A DNA stretch of 15,216 nt from Candidatus Odinarchaeia archaeon (GTDB lineage: Archaea > Asgardarchaeota > Odinarchaeia > Odinarchaeales > Odinarchaeaceae): assembly GCA_029856525.1 (NCBI GenBank), contig JAHQXC010000028.1:1-15216 (forward strand). The letters run 5' to 3'. Shown here in pieces: positions 2,453-9,974 of this stretch (position 1 is the stretch's first letter; each line of letters opens with the position of its first letter). The notes beneath the pieces were generated by a model that made no database searches, was not told the DNA's origin, and worked only from the letters and a program-made list of their open reading frames with translations. A program made the translations under genes and the position numbers.

Positions 2453-3823
2453 ATGAGCCTTAACATATTAGATAAAACAGTAAAAATTCTGCGAGAATAC
2501 AAGCTTTGCAGTAATTGTTTAGGTAGAATGTTCGGTATGCTAGGAACAGGGTTAACTAATAAGGAGAGGGGTGAAGCGTTAATAATCGCTTTAATGATGC
2601 TTGCAGATGAAGAGATGAAGAATGAAGCTGCGGATAAGCTAAACGAGATAATCGAGGCTTTAAAAAATGTTGCCGGATTCAAAACACTCTATAAATTTCT
2701 ATCGGAGAGACTTAGTTTAAAACAGAGTGAAAACGTTTGCTACATTTGCGAAAATATTTTTGATCGACTTGAAGAATTAGTAAAGAAAAGTCTAAGTGAA
2801 ATCAACTCCTATGAGTTCAAAACCTTCTTAGTCGGCACGAATATAGATGAGAAGATAATTGAAAGAGAAGACAATTTCAGAGCGAAATTCAGTTTAACAT
2901 GGGGGGAATCTATTAAAAGCGAATTAAACAGGGAGATAGGTAAAATAATAAAAAAGCATTTCCCCGATGTGGAAACCAGTTTCGAAAACCCTCACATAAT
3001 AATCGAGTATAGCATTCCTAGCTTCAATTACAAGATAAACGTCAACCCTGTTTTCATATATGGAAGATATAGAAAATTAGTTAGAGGTATACCTCAAACC
3101 AAGTGGATTTGTAAAAGCTGCAAGGGAACTGGATGTGAAAGATGCGGTTTTAAAGGTAGAATGTATGATATCTCCGTGGAAGAGTTAATTTCTAAGCCTG
3201 TTATAGAGAAACTTAACGGAGTTAACGCGAAATTTCACGGCGCGGGAAGAGAGGATATAGATGCGATAATGACAGGTTTCGGGAGACCGTTCGTATTAGA
3301 GGTGAAAGGTGTTAAAAAAAGATTCATAGAATTAGAAGAACTGAAATCAGAGATCAATAATTACGCTAACGGTAAAGTTGAAGTCTCCGACTTAAAATGG
3401 ACTTCTAGAAATATGATTCGAAAAATTAAAGCACTCTCAAAGATTACAAGGAAAAAATACAGGGCTATTGTCCAATTAAATAATAATATAACAGACGACA
3501 AGATTATTGAAGCTGAAAAATATCTTTCAAACACTATTATTCAACAAAGAACACCTAAGCGAGTAGCTCATAGGAGAAGTGATAAACTTAGAGAAAAGCA
3601 AGTTTACAGCTTAAAAATAACAAGACTATCAGAGGATAAACTTGAAGTAATCGTTGACTGTCAAGGAGGACTCTATGTGAAAGAGCTTGTCAGCGGAGAC
3701 GACGGTAGAACTAAACCAAGCCTATCTGAGATATTAGGGGTTGAAGCGAAATGCATTCAATTAGACGTATTAGACGTTGATCTACCAGATGACGTGGTTA
3801 AAACAGGAATTCTTGATAAGTGA
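2453..3823 (+). CDS. pus10: tRNA pseudouridine(54/55) synthase Pus10
   Basis: N-terminal CxxC...CxxC, THUMP-like region, GRYRKLVRGIPQT, catalytic GAGREDID, QRTPKRVAHRR and GGLYVKELVSGDDGRT motifs. SD AGGTGA lies upstream. Confidence 0.97.
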   Translation: MSLNILDKTVKILREYKLCSNCLGRMFGMLGTGLTNKERGEALIIALMMLADEEMKNEAADKLNEIIEALKNVAGFKTLYKFLSERLSLKQSENVCYICENIFDRLEELVKKSLSEINSYEFKTFLVGTNIDEKIIEREDNFRAKFSLTWGESIKSELNREIGKIIKKHFPDVETSFENPHIIIEYSIPSFNYKINVNPVFIYGRYRKLVRGIPQTKWICKSCKGTGCERCGFKGRMYDISVEELISKPVIEKLNGVNAKFHGAGREDIDAIMTGFGRPFVLEVKGVKKRFIELEELKSEINNYANGKVEVSDLKWTSRNMIRKIKALSKITRKKYRAIVQLNNNITDDKIIEAEKYLSNTIIQQRTPKRVAHRRSDKLREKQVYSLKITRLSEDKLEVIVDCQGGLYVKELVSGDDGRTKPSLSEILGVEAKCIQLDVLDVDLPDDVVKTGILDK

Positions 3824-3835
3824 GCTACTCCTCGA

Positions 3836-3992
3836 CTAAAGTCGGGAGCTTCCAGCGTTCGTCTGAGGCTTTACACCTTCAGTTACACGTGCTGGTTCGC
3901 GGGGCTCACAGCTCCGCCATCCTGTGCCTCTCATTAAGGCATGGGCTATGTTTATGCATGCGTTCCGGTCTTCGGTTGTAGATTAACCCACA
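3836..3992 (-). pseudogene. tnpB: tnpB C-terminal remnant (end of zinc finger and RuvC-III), +1 frameshift
   Basis: Reads CGLIYNR (3992-3972), one extra A (3971), then DRNACINIA...GSSRL-stop. This matches the TnpB CGxxxxRDxNAxxNI motif. Confidence 0.8.
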
Positions 3993-4033
3993 TCAAGGGA
4001 ATATCCCTAAAACTTTTTTAAACACCGCGCGGA

Positions 4034-4046
4034 TATTTAAGTTTCT
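4034..4046 (-). promoter_or_regulatory. BRE-TATA inside E1 (AGAAA-CTTAAATA), predicted start near 4010
   Basis: Lies directly inside the LE hairpin, the same position as the TATA-like boxes in E2, E3 and E4. Confidence 0.5.
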
Positions 4047-4204
4047 GCCCATTCACCCCCTAACTGAAGTTAGGGGTTTTCTGGGCACCCTTTTTTATAA
4101 AAGCTAGTTTTTTAATAGCACACCAAAGAGTTTTTATTTTAATTGAATTATTCAGTTAGTTAACATGAAAGCTAATATGTGTTTAATAAGATAGGGTGCT
4201 AGTT

Positions 4205-4495
4205 ATGGTTAAAAGAACTAAAGGCTATAGAAATAGAACTAGAGACTTATTCTCTAAGAATACTAGGGAAAAAGGTATACCCCCTTTAAGCTACTTATTA
4301 AAAGAATATGAGCCTGGAGAGAAAGTCAGCATATATATAAACCCTACTATCCATAAAGGCCAACCACACCGAAGGTACCATGGTAGAACCGGGACAATTA
4401 TAGGTAGAAGAGGGCGCGCTTACCTTGTCTCTTTCAACATCGGTGGAAAAGAGAAAATAGTGATAACTAGGCCGGAACACATTAAAAGCGCTTAG
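4205..4495 (+). CDS. rpl21e: 50S ribosomal protein L21e (eL21)
   Basis: KGYRNRTR, GEKVSIYINP, KGQPHRRYHGRTG and RPEHIK motifs. ATG 4205 is preferred to GTG 4196 because SD AGGGTG lies at 4193-4198. Confidence 0.97.
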   Translation: MVKRTKGYRNRTRDLFSKNTREKGIPPLSYLLKEYEPGEKVSIYINPTIHKGQPHRRYHGRTGTIIGRRGRAYLVSFNIGGKEKIVITRPEHIKSA

Positions 4496-4513
4496 ATACG
4501 GAGGCTATTATAA

Positions 4514-4843
4514 ATGGTTAAAGAAAAAATCAAAGAGACACCGCTCACGTTAGCGGAGGTTAAAAATATTCTCCAGAAAAGAGAGAAAGAAGGGGAGCTT
4601 AGCTATGTGCAAAGAGTCACATTAGACTATGTTAGTAAGATGACTAGTTTAACTGTCCAGCAAGCTAGAAACCTGGTTAAAGAACTTATTAAATTAGGGG
4701 TTAGCGAGAATACAGCTATTCAAATAGCTAACGCTCTCCCCGAGTATAAAGAGGAGCTAAGTGTTTTCTTAACCGGTGAAAAAACCTTCACCCCTGAAGA
4801 AGTAGAGGAGATACTTAAAAAAATAAAAGAGTATAAGCAATAA
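4514..4843 (+). CDS. rpoF: DNA-directed RNA polymerase subunit F (Rpo4)
   Basis: 109 aa with TLAEVKNIL, LSYVQRVTLDY and AIQIANALP. Conserved position after rpl21e; SD GGAGG. Confidence 0.92.
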   Translation: MVKEKIKETPLTLAEVKNILQKREKEGELSYVQRVTLDYVSKMTSLTVQQARNLVKELIKLGVSENTAIQIANALPEYKEELSVFLTGEKTFTPEEVEEILKKIKEYKQ

Positions 4844-8086: not shown

Positions 8087-8145
8087 TATCTCTCGCCTTA
8101 ACCAATTAAATATTTAAAGAGTTGAGAGTTATGAAATCAACTGAT

Positions 8146-8850
8146 ATGCTAGAGAATTTTAGAGTAGTACTTGTTGAACCGGAAAGCAGCGGAAATATAG
8201 GTTTCATAGCTAGATTAATGAAGAATTTCGGTTTAAAAGACCTAGTACTAGTGAATCCTATCGCGAAAGTAAACGAGGAGAGCGTTAATTTTTCAGCTCA
8301 CGCTGTAGACATTATAAATAATATTAAAATAGTAGATAGCTTGGAGGATGCTTTAGAAGACGCTGATCTGATTATAGGGACAACCTCCATACCCGGCTCG
8401 GATTATAATCCTATAAGAACATGCCTATCCTCATATGAATTATGTAAAATGGATTTCGCTGAAAAAAGTATTATAGCACTAGTTTTCGGAAGAGAGAGCA
8501 GAGGGTTAACGAATGAAGAGTTAAATCAATGCGATTTCACGGTTACAATACCGGCTGAACATAGCTATCCAACGTTGAATATTTCTCACGCTGCTTCAAT
8601 AATATTTTATGAATTACGTAAAGTTAAAGCTGAAAGAGGCTTCCAAAAAAGCAGGTTAGCTAGCAAAATCGAGAAGGAAATTATACTAAATTATTTCAAC
8701 GAGATTTTAAGTAAAATCGGATACCCTAGGGTTAAATTTCACATAGCGCGTAGAATAGTTAGAAACATATTCAGCCGGGCTTTAATCAGCGGACGTGAGG
8801 CGCATACTCTAATAGGGATCCTGAGACGGATTTCAGAAAATCTCAGCTAA
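8146..8850 (+). CDS. trmJ: TrmJ-family tRNA (position 32 2'-O)-methyltransferase, SPOUT
   Basis: VVLVEP..GNIG..ARLMKNFG, IGTT, VFGRESRGLTNEEL and YPTLNISHA motifs. The start could be 8122, 8131 or 8146; a TATA-like box at 8111-8118 fits a leaderless start at 8146. Confidence 0.88.
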   Translation: MLENFRVVLVEPESSGNIGFIARLMKNFGLKDLVLVNPIAKVNEESVNFSAHAVDIINNIKIVDSLEDALEDADLIIGTTSIPGSDYNPIRTCLSSYELCKMDFAEKSIIALVFGRESRGLTNEELNQCDFTVTIPAEHSYPTLNISHAASIIFYELRKVKAERGFQKSRLASKIEKEIILNYFNEILSKIGYPRVKFHIARRIVRNIFSRALISGREAHTLIGILRRISENLS

Positions 8851-9021
8851 TTAGAGAAACATAGAAGCCTACCGTATATCGATTGGAATAAGCTAATCTC
8901 TAGCAGAGAAGTAACAGCTTATACTCTTAAAGCATGTTGAAAAACCACTCGACCAGTGCGCTAATTTAAAGGTGTTTAGCTTTCAAACTATACTTTAACG
9001 AATAGAAGCGGTAGCTGAAAA

Positions 9022-9201
9022 GTGAACTACCCCTCCTTATCGGATGGGGTTTCCTGCTTCAATGATGAAGCCTGCCGGTATTTTCGACCGGTAGAGGCCC
9101 CGTCTCAGCCCGCATCTCTATCCTTTTTTACACTTGAAAACCGTAAATACTTTTCAGCTTTCAACCCCTAGCTTTCGCAGGGTGACTTCCAGCCGATAAA
9201 G
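9022..9201 (-). mobile_element. Element E2: 180-bp non-coding IS200/IS605-type mini-element (LE, promoter, about 100-nt scaffold, RE)
   Basis: RE reads GAAGCAGGAAA-CCCC-A-TCC-GATAA-GGA-GGGG-TAGTTCAC. LE reads TTTAA|CTTTATCGGCTGGAAG plus a CCCTGC-GAAA-GC-T-AGGG hairpin. Colinear with E3 end to end. The LE boundary is uncertain by about 3 nt. Confidence 0.88.
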
Positions 9202-9501
9202 TTAAAAGCCGAGTATTTTTCTAGCTTCAGGGGACATCATTTCAGGAGACCATGGGGGATCCCAAACCACTTGAACCTCTACTTTACCGATACCTTTAAT
9301 ATTACTCAATTTATTACGAACCTCGTTAGCTATTAAAGAGTGTAACGGACATCCTGGAGCTGTTAAAGTCATTTTCACATAAACATCCTTGCCGTCTTTA
9401 ATCTGAACATCGTATATTAAACCTAAATCAACAATATTAACAGGTATTTCGGGATCATAACAGGTTTTTAAAACTTTTATTACTTCCTCTTTTGAAATCA
9501 T
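9202..9501 (-). CDS. DUF59/MIP18 (SufT/PaaD-like) Fe-S cluster assembly protein
   Basis: 99 aa with DPEIPVNIVDLGLIY, TAPGCP and PPWSPEMM. SD GGTGGT at 9514-9509. Confidence 0.93.
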   Translation of the reverse strand: MISKEEVIKVLKTCYDPEIPVNIVDLGLIYDVQIKDGKDVYVKMTLTAPGCPLHSLIANEVRNKLSNIKGIGKVEVQVVWDPPWSPEMMSPEARKILGF

Positions 9502-9544
9502 TTAAGCAACCACCGTTAATTTTAAGTTATTTTATAGTAGCTTA

Positions 9545-9764
9545 GTGAATCACTCCAGCTCTCATAAACGGCTTCCGCTTCATAGAGAAGACTCACCGCG
9601 AGCGCAACCCGGAGGGAGTTGAATGCTACTCTTCGCCGGCTTCTCAGAGCTAACACAGCTCTAATAATCCTCTATGAGAGTGGAGCTCTCACAAAATATA
9701 ATGTAACCACGTCTTTATAAGAGTATCAGCCCCAAGACTGAGATGGGGATTCTAGCCTATAAAG
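9545..9764 (-). mobile_element. Element E4: 220-bp IS200/IS605-type mini-element with a remodelled RNA scaffold
   Basis: LE TTTAAA|CTTTATAGGCTAGAAT-CCCCA..TGGGG-CTGA is homologous to the E2/E3 LE. TTATAAAG at 9720-9713. RE-like TGAAGCGGAAGCC...GGAG-TGATTCAC. GTGAGTC (9596-9590) is complementary to the terminal GATTCAC (9551-9545). Confidence 0.72.
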
Positions 9765-9974
9765 TTTAAATATTGCAGCCGCAGCCTCAAAGAAAATTAG
9801 ATTAAGCGCATAGAATAACTCTGAAGCTTCTATATTATACTAATAAACTCCGACAAAGTTAAATATAGTAATGCATAACGTTAAGAATACTTAACTTGAG
9901 TGAAAAATGGAATGCTCGGTTAAATCACTATTATATTTCAAAAAACTCTAGTAGTCAATGCAGGTGAATTTAAT

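What the first reader, a model, noticed from the sequence alone, without database searches (positions are those of the whole stretch)
3815..4101. Stop-codon swap: E1 inserted in the last codon of pus10 without changing the protein
Seen in sequence: with E1 present, pus10 ends GAT AAG TGA, where the G and TGA come from the element end (GTGA, the complement of TCAC). Deleting 3820-4096 gives GAT AAA TAA, which is also Asp-Lys-stop. The target motif TTTAT read on the other strand is A-TAA-A and the RE end is G-TGA, so both carry a stop in the same register. Established: the IS608 rule pairs the 4 nt before the hairpin with the cleavage tetranucleotide. AAAA predicts TTxT (TTAT is seen) and GAAG predicts TCxC (TCAC is seen). 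Inference: this end chemistry makes antisense insertion at NNA-TAA gene ends nearly neutral, giving a safe-harbour niche in essential operons. E2 likewise sits immediately after the TAA of DUF59 (TTT TAA is its target motif). The E1 guide is antisense to the pus10 mRNA 3' end.
Basis: partly seen in the sequence, partly recalled or inferred. Interest (0 to 1): 0.7.

Follow-up and report, generated by a model that had tools for sequence, protein, structure and literature searches.

The report
Mini-transposon that swaps a stop codon
A 277-base gene-less IS200/IS605 mini-transposon sits inside the last codon of the pus10 gene of an Asgard archaeon, and its own end rebuilds "Lys-stop", so the protein is unchanged; this recurs in other archaea but follows from known transposon chemistry plus selection.

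Summary
E1 (3820-4096, read on the minus strand) is a deletion derivative (PATE) of a TnpB-only IS200/IS605 element. A 1341-nt parent lies on another contig of the same genome. E1 inserted 3' of TTTAT, between bases 2 and 3 of the last pus10 codon. AAA-TAA became AAG-TGA, with the G and the TGA supplied by the right end (TCAC).

Three congeners have no element at this site. Their pus10 ends at the same place, and one ends in AAA TAA.

The IS608 guide/cleavage rule fits both E1 ends.

The swap recurs:
- Two more cases occur in this genome with a second PATE family (Toprim and EamA genes).
- Seven of 69 related right ends from other archaeal phyla show it, six of them in Pfam-supported genes.
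- This is about three times the roughly 3.5-4% expected from target-motif counts (combined P about 0.002).

Limits:
- One E1 copy lies inside a peptidase reading frame.
- A broader metagenome sample shows no clear excess.
- The pus10 case alone is not surprising (P about 0.16-0.19).
- No empty pus10 allele was found.

I read the swap as a by-product of the TxAx cleavage sites plus purifying selection, not as a dedicated niche. Earlier notes of this scan had already described these mini-elements elsewhere in this genome.

The parts
2453..3823 (+). pus10 coding sequence (456 aa). The last sense codon AAG is at 3818-3820 and the stop TGA is at 3821-3823.
   Evidence: ORF list. Pfam Pus10_C 6.5e-72 and Pus10_THUMP_arc 2.8e-20. 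Orthologues in 39 of 41 related genomes.
3820..4096 (-). E1: a 277-nt protein-less IS200/IS605 derivative (PATE). It consists of the left end (element positions 1-103) fused to the tnpB 3' end plus right end (positions 104-277).
   Evidence: BLAST against the own genome. The parent at C93:25965-27305 has the same ends around a 426-codon TnpB frame.
3820..3823 (-). Right-end cleavage tetranucleotide TCAC. Its complement GTGA supplies the third base of the Lys codon and the TGA stop of pus10.
3828..3848 (-). Right-end imperfect hairpin CTCCCGAC-TTTA-GTCGAGGAG, with one bulged A.
   Evidence: The same architecture is seen in related elements and in the tnpA-tnpB element on C44.
3849..3852 (-). 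Right guide tetranucleotide GAAG, 5' of the hairpin foot. By the IS608 rule it pairs with TCAC.
   Evidence: Rule taken from PMC3201880.
3800..3819 (-). Flank immediately 3' of the right end, TTATCAAGAATTCCTGTTTT. This is the predicted guide part of an E1-derived omega-RNA and is complementary to the last pus10 codons.
   Evidence: Sequence. The guide role is inferred from the known TnpB omega-RNA layout. No RNA data exist.
4057..4076 (-). Left-end hairpin CCCCTAAC-TTCA-GTTAGGGG.
4077..4080 (-). Left guide tetranucleotide AAAA. By the IS608 rule it pairs with the target TTAT.
4097..4101 (-). Target motif TTTAT (plus strand ATAAA). It holds the displaced third base of the old Lys codon (4097) and the old stop TAA (4098-4100).
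4196..4495 (+). rpl21e, the next gene. Its conserved upstream block (about 4123-4165) lies beyond E1 and is intact.
   Evidence: Pfam Ribosomal_L21e 1.2e-36. Alignment by eye with the congeners.
9022..9201 (-). E2, a member of a second PATE family (target TTTAA, right end GTAGTTCAC). It starts at the base after the TAA of the DUF59 gene.
9202..9501 (-). DUF59 / FeS_assembly_P gene. Its stop TAA (9202-9204) is the end of the E2 target motif.

Best explanation
E1 is a non-autonomous IS200/IS605 element (a PATE). It arose by internal deletion of a TnpB-only parent that is still present in this genome. It keeps both subterminal hairpins, the parent's left-end region, and the tnpB 3' end plus right end, which form the omega-RNA scaffold.

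A Y1 transposase supplied in trans is the likely mover; the genome has one tnpA. It inserted the single-stranded element 3' of TTTAT on the minus strand. On the pus10 strand that point lies between the second and third base of the last codon (AA|A TAA).

In IS608-like elements both cleavage tetranucleotides have the form T-x-A-x. Read on the opposite strand, the target TTAT is A-TAA and the right end TCAC is G-TGA, in the same register. An antisense insertion at NNA-TAA therefore turns the gene end into NNG-TGA. This is synonymous for almost every codon; here it is Lys to Lys.

Such insertions are invisible to selection on the protein. They therefore persist and recur across archaea at roughly 10% of copies of this family.

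Shown here: the anatomy, the boundaries, the unchanged protein, the recurrence and the modest excess. Inferred: the actual transposition route, the neutrality in vivo, and that selection rather than targeting produces the excess.
For: - Copies and boundaries.
- Full-length parent with a TnpB frame: Pfam TNB domain 4.6e-17; Cas12f/TnpB structures 9e-14 to 2e-9; zinc-ribbon and NRDLDACINIA motifs.
- One Y1_Tnp gene in the genome, 1.1e-39. Its element has IS608-identical AAAG/TTAC and GAAT/TCAA.
- Rule read from PMC3201880. E1 has AAAA/TTAT and GAAG/TCAC. A relative with GL AAAG has a TTAC flank (L077).
- Congeners lack the element and end pus10 at the same position.
- Two further swaps in this genome were checked against congeners. 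The Toprim gene changed GAT TAA to GAG TGA. The EamA gene changed GTT TAA to GTG TGA.
- In 69 related right ends from Bathyarchaeia, Methanomethylicia, Korarchaeia, Nitrososphaerota and others, 7 long antisense ORFs end on the element's TGA. Six have Pfam domains that reach the model end.
- Reconstructed empty sites read AGA, CTA, AGA, ACA and TTA followed by TAA.
- The expected share is 3.2-4.2%. The combined count is 10 of 93, P about 0.002.
- Of 12 gene-like ORFs that cross a right-end junction, 8 are in the stop register, P 0.019.
Against: - No empty pus10 allele was recovered, so the pre-insertion sequence is a reconstruction.
- The null model treats all non-coding motif sites as equally tolerated. 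That is surely wrong, so the size of the excess is uncertain.
- One E1 copy (C78/C125) interrupts the last 20 codons of an M28 peptidase frame, so the family does not avoid coding DNA.
- In 103 distinct right ends of the wider TTGAAGCAGGAA...TAGTTCAC group, only 3 Pfam-supported swaps were found, which is about the chance level.
- There are no RNA or transposition data.
Confidence: 0.8

Rival explanations
1. Dedicated niche. The family prefers or has adapted to gene ends. The stop-bearing end sequences would be kept because they allow harmless antisense insertion. This also places the omega-RNA guide in conserved coding DNA, which would help TnpB-driven homing into empty alleles.
For: There is a threefold excess in the E1-type family and in this genome. 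In 37 elements with both flanks, 5 have only the right flank in coding DNA and none has only the left flank. TCAC is conserved at right ends across phyla.
Against: The T-x-A-x form of both cleavage sites is already explained by the TnpA chemistry (T-4:A-2 contact and guide pairing). About 90% of copies are not at stop codons. One copy lies inside a gene. There is no clear excess in the wider sample. The genes hit are not notably essential.
Confidence: 0.15
2. The boundaries are misread. TTAT flanks E1 on both sides (TTTAT|E1|TTATC). It could therefore be a 4-bp target duplication, in which case pus10 originally ended ...Leu-Asp-Lys-Ser-TAG and the insertion removed one residue.
For: The right flank of the pus10 copy does begin with TTAT.
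Against: The other right flanks begin ATAG, ATGA and TACT. At the M28 site a congener's uninterrupted sequence has ATAA once. The IS200/IS605 family makes no target duplications (PMC3201880). G001 pus10 ends with Lys-TAA and a tail of the same length.
Confidence: 0.03
3. Assembly artefact. A repeat was wrongly joined between pus10 and rpl21e in a fragmented MAG.
For: The genome has 127 contigs, and many of them break inside these repeats.
Against: The contig spans the whole element with unique DNA on both sides. Independent Logan contigs run from unique flank into each end of E1. The junctions follow the family's exact end rules.
Confidence: 0.02

Closest known systems
PATEs (palindrome-associated transposable elements) of Haloquadratum walsbyi and other haloarchaea (Dyall-Smith et al. 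2011, PMC3119063)
   Same: These are protein-less derivatives of IS605/IS1341-type transposons made by core deletion. They have subterminal palindromes, no inverted terminal repeats and no target duplication, and some keep part of the tnpB 3' coding region.
   Different: The host here is an Asgard archaeon. That paper, as far as its text was searched, does not mention insertions that overlap and rebuild stop codons.
IS608 of Helicobacter pylori (He et al. 2011, PMC3201880; Barabas et al. 2008, as cited there)
   Same: The layout matches: a target/left cleavage site outside the element, a guide tetranucleotide 5' of each hairpin foot, and a right cleavage site as the last four bases. The pairing pattern fits E1 (AAAA/TTAT, GAAG/TCAC). 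The IS608 sites TTAC and TCAA also read G-TAA and T-TGA on the other strand, in the same register.
   Different: E1 has no tnpA or tnpB. Its cleavage sites differ in sequence. Its right cleavage site starts 4 nt after the hairpin foot, against about 10 nt in IS608. No biochemistry exists for E1.
TnpB omega-RNA homing (IS605-family TnpB cleaves vacant sites; abstract of bioRxiv 10.1101/2023.11.20.567912)
   Same: E1 keeps the tnpB 3' end plus right end, which encode the scaffold. The predicted guide is the 3' flank. The empty site would read TTTAT followed by that guide.
   Different: E1 has no nuclease of its own and would depend on the TnpB of the C93 copy. Expression and cleavage are untested.
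IStrons (IS200/IS605-type elements fused to group I introns; PMC4227781, abstract)
   Same: This is another way in which an IS200/IS605-type insertion is made harmless to the host gene.
   Different: IStrons act by RNA splicing and can sit anywhere in a gene. The stop swap acts at the DNA level and only at NNA-TAA (or NNT-TAA) gene ends.
Integrative elements that rebuild the 3' end of a tRNA or protein gene on insertion (own knowledge, not checked here)
   Same: The inserted DNA replaces the displaced end of the target gene with an equivalent copy.
   Different: Those elements use site-specific recombinases and long attachment sites. Here four bases are replaced, and this happens because of the composition of the cleavage sites.

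Membership tests
IS200/IS605 non-autonomous derivative (PATE) | Subterminal imperfect hairpins at both ends and no terminal inverted repeats | tested here: met
   The left hairpin is at 4057-4076 and the right hairpin at 3828-3848. The ends are not inverted repeats.
IS200/IS605 non-autonomous derivative (PATE) | Insertion 3' of a fixed tetra- or pentanucleotide, with no target duplication | tested here: met
   All 5 left flanks end in TTAT. The 4 right flanks are unrelated to each other. A congener's uninterrupted M28 site has ATAA once. Relatives in other phyla show TTAT|.
IS200/IS605 non-autonomous derivative (PATE) | Guide tetranucleotide 5' of each hairpin matches its cleavage site (IS608 rule) | tested here: met
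   AAAA/TTAT and GAAG/TCAC fit the rule as read in PMC3201880. The internal control on C44 has AAAG/TTAC and GAAT/TCAA. This is sequence-level evidence only.
IS200/IS605 non-autonomous derivative (PATE) | Derived from a transposase/TnpB-bearing parent; too short to encode a protein | tested here: met
   C93:25965-27305 shares positions 1-103 and 104-277 around a TnpB frame. The longest frame in E1 after its ATG is 13 codons (read from the sequence).
IS200/IS605 non-autonomous derivative (PATE) | A Y1 (HUH) TnpA available in trans and able to move it | tested here: inconclusive
   One Y1_Tnp gene is present at C44:8252-8602, 1.1e-39. Whether it acts on the E1 ends cannot be tested here.
TnpB omega-RNA (reRNA) gene | Scaffold encoded by the tnpB 3' end plus right end, with the guide taken from the 3' flank | tested here: met
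   E1 positions 104-277 align with the last 173 nt of the parent, including the tnpB stop 5 nt from the end. The fold z-score is -2.9.
TnpB omega-RNA (reRNA) gene | Transcribed and bound by a TnpB | not testable with these tools
   No RNA runs hold this DNA. There is no Rfam match at gathering score.
Site-specific 'safe-harbour' integration system | Most copies sit at one defined kind of harmless site through a targeting mechanism | tested here: not met
   Only 3 of 24 right ends in this genome and 7 of 69 in relatives are at stop codons. One copy is inside a coding frame.

The most novel reading that the evidence does not exclude
The T-x-A-x shape that TnpA chemistry imposes on both cleavage sites may make IS608-like elements intrinsically stop-codon-preserving when they insert antisense at gene ends. 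Lineages may exploit this. The insertion costs the host nothing, while the omega-RNA guide falls in the conserved last codons of a gene. TnpB homing into empty alleles would then stay effective for longer than with intergenic guides.
Probability: 0.15. Interest if true: 0.6.

Novelty: new member of a known kind. Interest (0 to 1): 0.38.

Why it matters
This is a clean example of how a transposon can sit inside a housekeeping gene at no cost to the protein. It gives a simple, checkable rule for IS608-like elements: target T-T-A-N and right end T-C-A-N read as N-TAA and N-TGA on the other strand, in the same register.

For annotation, gene ends that run a few bases into such repeats are genuine and should not be trimmed or flagged as disrupted.

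For TnpB biology, it points to a class of natural guides that lie in coding sequence.

It does not reveal a new mechanism. The paper searches here found no earlier description, but the effect is a corollary of established chemistry.

Tried and rejected
- Empty allele, reads: Logan contigs of three runs were laid on 3300-4600. None joins across 3820-4096. These are contigs only, so this says nothing about absence.
- Empty allele, protein look-up: an exact-protein look-up of Pus10, which would find filled and empty alleles alike, returned only the source sample's own contig.
- Rfam: no family matched at gathering score in the window.
- More copies in congeners: a right-end pattern search gave zero matches in G001-G003. 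Both PATE families appear to be confined to this species, so the sample could not be enlarged there.
- Phylum-wide DNA search with E1: only two matches per genome were scored, so it was of little use for counting.
- A 51-codon antisense ORF ending on the right-end TGA at C119:885 was rejected. It overlaps a DUF134 gene on the other strand.
- Six of the nine ORFs of 100 codons or more in the stop register of the metagenome sample have no Pfam support. They were not counted as genes.
- The left-end guide rule could not be fitted by eye to the E2 family (target TTTAA). This was left open.
- The target-duplication reading of the TTAT on both sides of E1 was rejected (see the rival explanations).

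Full report
**What is in the sequence**

The pus10 ORF (2453-3823, plus strand) has Pfam Pus10_C (6.5e-72) and an archaeal Pus10 THUMP domain. It ends CTT GAT AAG TGA. Bases 3820-4096 are a repeat. Read on the minus strand, it begins AAAAAAGGGTGCCCAG directly after TTTAT and ends GTAGCTCAC directly before TTATCAAG. Deleting it gives GGAATTCTTGATAA|ATAAAAGCTAG, which reads GAT AAA TAA.

**What E1 is**

BLAST against the whole genome (1.32 Mb, 127 contigs; the window is the whole of contig C29) finds several copies:
- two further 274-277-nt copies, 93.5-94% identical to E1;
- several partial copies at contig ends;
- one 1341-nt copy at C93:25965-27305.

In the 1341-nt copy, E1 positions 1-103 and 104-277 flank a 426-codon frame. 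That frame has:
- the Cas12f1-like TNB domain (4.6e-17);
- matches to solved Cas12f and TnpB chains (9e-14 to 2e-9);
- two CxxC pairs and an NRDLDACINIA motif.

E1 is thus a core-deleted, protein-less derivative of a TnpB-only IS200/IS605 element, the kind named PATE in Haloquadratum (PMC3119063). It keeps the last roughly 58 tnpB codons and the right end, which together form the omega-RNA scaffold region. The tnpB stop TAG lies 5 nt from the element end.

The genome holds one Y1 transposase gene next to a second tnpB (C44).

**Boundaries**

- All five left flanks end in TTAT, four of them in TTTAT.
- The four right ends that have a flank all stop at TCAC, followed by unrelated DNA (TTAT, ATAG, ATGA, TACT).
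- The E1 copy split between contigs C78 and C125 can be compared with congeners. Their uninterrupted DNA carries ATAA once at the insertion point. So TTAT is the target and is not duplicated.

This rules out reading the TTAT on both sides of the pus10 copy as a target duplication.

**The IS608 rule**

He et al. 2011 (PMC3201880) give GL AAAG for CL TTAC, and a GR beginning G-35 A-34 for CR TCAA. They also report a T-4:A-2 contact inside each cleavage site.

- E1 has AAAA before the left hairpin and TTAT as target. It has GAAG before the right hairpin and TCAC as its last four bases. This follows the same pairing pattern.
- The tnpA-tnpB element on C44 has exactly AAAG/TTAC and GAAT/TCAA. This is an internal positive control.
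- A relative of E1 with GL AAAG has a TTAC flank (L077).

My inference is as follows. Because T-4 and A-2 are fixed, each cleavage site read on the other strand is N-T-N-A. That is a stop codon whenever position -3 is T (giving TAA) or C (giving TGA). This explains why the target and the right end carry stops in the same register, in IS608 itself as well.

**Relatives of the host**

Pus10 was found in 39 of 41 related genomes. The three congeners have pus10 followed by rpl21e with no element.
- G001 ends ...STK, ACC AAA TAA, with a tail of the same length as here.
- In G002 the TAA aligns with the reconstructed TAA, upstream of a conserved block shared by all four genomes.

Neither PATE family was detected in the congeners, so the elements entered after speciation.

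Earlier notes of this scan call the organism an Odinarchaeon. I did not verify this. However, genomes reported as phylum-mates carry the same loci as named Odinarchaeota, Baldrarchaeota and Jordarchaeia MAGs.

**Is the assembly right, and is there an empty allele?**

One sediment-metagenome run holds the stretch. Its independent contigs run from unique flank into each end of E1 (3300-3845 and 4074-4600). None skips the element. An exact-protein look-up of Pus10, which would retrieve filled and empty alleles alike, found only that sample. The junctions are therefore real, and the empty allele remains a reconstruction.

**Is it more than chance?**

I called genes in the genome with a simple ORF caller: 1376 genes, 89% coding.

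Counts from this genome:
- Stop context: A-TAA-A occurs at 79 of 1306 gene ends and T-TAA-A at 134.
- Among TTTAT sites that are non-coding or overlap a stop, 4.2% are antisense stop overlaps. For TTTAA the figure is 3.8%.
- With 4-5 E1 copies, the chance of at least one such hit is 0.16-0.19. The pus10 event alone is unremarkable.

The second PATE family (target TTTAA, right end GTAGTTCAC, about 20-25 copies) adds two more cases:
- A Toprim-domain gene: reconstructed GAT TAA became GAG TGA, a change from Asp to Glu.
- An EamA transporter gene: GTT TAA became GTG TGA, which is synonymous.

Both genes end at the same position as their orthologues in the congeners. That makes 3 of 24 right ends, P = 0.07.

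**An independent sample**

A scan of one genome per species with the E1-type right-end pattern returned 83 stretches. About 76 are archaeal. They come from Bathyarchaeia, Methanomethylicia, Methanodesulfokora, Terraquivivens and other Nitrososphaerota, Archaeoglobi, Jordarchaeia, Odinarchaeota and Baldrarchaeota. Five are bacterial chance hits.

- Of 69 right ends with at least 400 nt of flank, 7 have an antisense ORF of 134-463 codons that ends exactly on the element's TGA.
- Six of these have Pfam domains that reach the end of the model: AAA+ ATPase, PIN, URO-D, HMG-CoA synthase, Pup-ligase-like and HypD.
- Where the left end was found, the flank ends in TTAT. The reconstructed ends are AGA, CTA, AGA, ACA and TTA followed by TAA, all synonymous after the change to NNG.
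- L077 uses TTAC and keeps its GTG codon unchanged.
- If L120 also uses TTAT (its left end was not recovered), TGA TAA became TGG TGA, a one-residue extension.
- The same loci give an expected share of 3.2-3.5%. P is 0.007-0.03. Combined with this genome the count is 10 of 93, P about 0.002.
- Among 12 gene-like ORFs (10 with a Pfam domain) that run into a right end, 8 are in the stop register. One third would be expected, P = 0.019.

**Limits**

- The E1 copy on C78/C125 lies 20 codons before the stop of an M28 peptidase. It replaces that tail with element-encoded residues, and it sits about 17 nt upstream of the next gene's start.
- Three genes in the wider sample (QueT, PIN, adenosine kinase) read 17-21 nt into the element in other frames.
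- A metagenome scan for the very widespread right end TTGAAGCAGGAA-hairpin-TAGTTCAC gave 103 distinct flanks. Only 3 had Pfam-supported swaps (Nramp, Flavoprotein, Rep3), which is about the chance level. Counting every ORF of 100 codons or more gives 9.
- The null model assumes that all non-coding motif sites are equally tolerated. Promoter regions surely are not, and that alone can produce a threefold excess at gene ends.

**Conclusion**

The swap is real, follows a rule and recurs. It is best explained as a by-product of the cleavage-site chemistry filtered by purifying selection. I found no evidence for a link to essential operons or for active targeting of stop codons.

The guide side of every such insertion is antisense to the last codons of the gene. 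This is a matter of geometry; its expression and any effect are untested.

Searches of the held literature found PATEs, the IS608 rule, TnpB homing and IStrons, but no description of this swap.

Noticed in passing
G000 contigs C78:10429-10531 and C125:1-274 (loci L005, L003): One E1 copy is split between two contig ends. It lies inside the 3' tail of an M28 peptidase gene, 20 codons before the congeners' stop. The frame reads on into the element (GTG AGC TAC ...). The copy sits about 17 nt upstream of the GTG start of the next gene, which looks ThiD-like.
   Followed up: partly
G000 contig C44, about 8120-9880 (locus L140): This is the only tnpA (Y1_Tnp) in the genome and it has an adjacent tnpB. 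The element's guide and cleavage tetranucleotides are identical to those of Helicobacter IS608 (AAAG/TTAC and GAAT/TCAA).
   Followed up: partly
loci L141-L260 (metagenome contigs): The right-end motif TTGAAGCAGGAAGC-hairpin-GTAGTTCAC is extremely widespread. Nearly every match has a clean hairpin.
   Followed up: partly
window 4123-4165 and the matching DNA of L009-L011: A block of about 45 nt, CACCAAAGAGTTTTTATTTTAATTGA(A)TTATTCAGTTAGTTAAC, upstream of rpl21e is almost invariant in all four genomes of the genus, although the neighbouring pus10 tail varies freely. It is probably the rpl21e promoter and leader.
   Followed up: no
G001, G002, G003 (whole genomes): Neither PATE family of this genome gives a match in the three congeners, two of which are nearly closed assemblies. 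The roughly 30 mini-elements are a species-specific expansion. They probably explain why this assembly is in 127 contigs.
   Followed up: partly
L164:2379-2810 and L120:335-1429: Two variant outcomes were seen. In L164, a 143-codon ORF with no Pfam hit has its stop TAG formed across the junction (flank TA plus element G). In L120 (HypD), the reconstructed TGA TAA became TGG TGA, adding one Trp.
   Followed up: no
C93:27282-27305, equivalent to window 3820-3843 on the minus strand: The tnpB reading frame of the parent runs through the right-end hairpin and stops only 5 nt before the element end. The last 24 nt therefore serve at once as coding sequence, TnpA hairpin and cleavage site, omega-RNA 3' scaffold and, on the other strand, a stop codon.
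   Followed up: no
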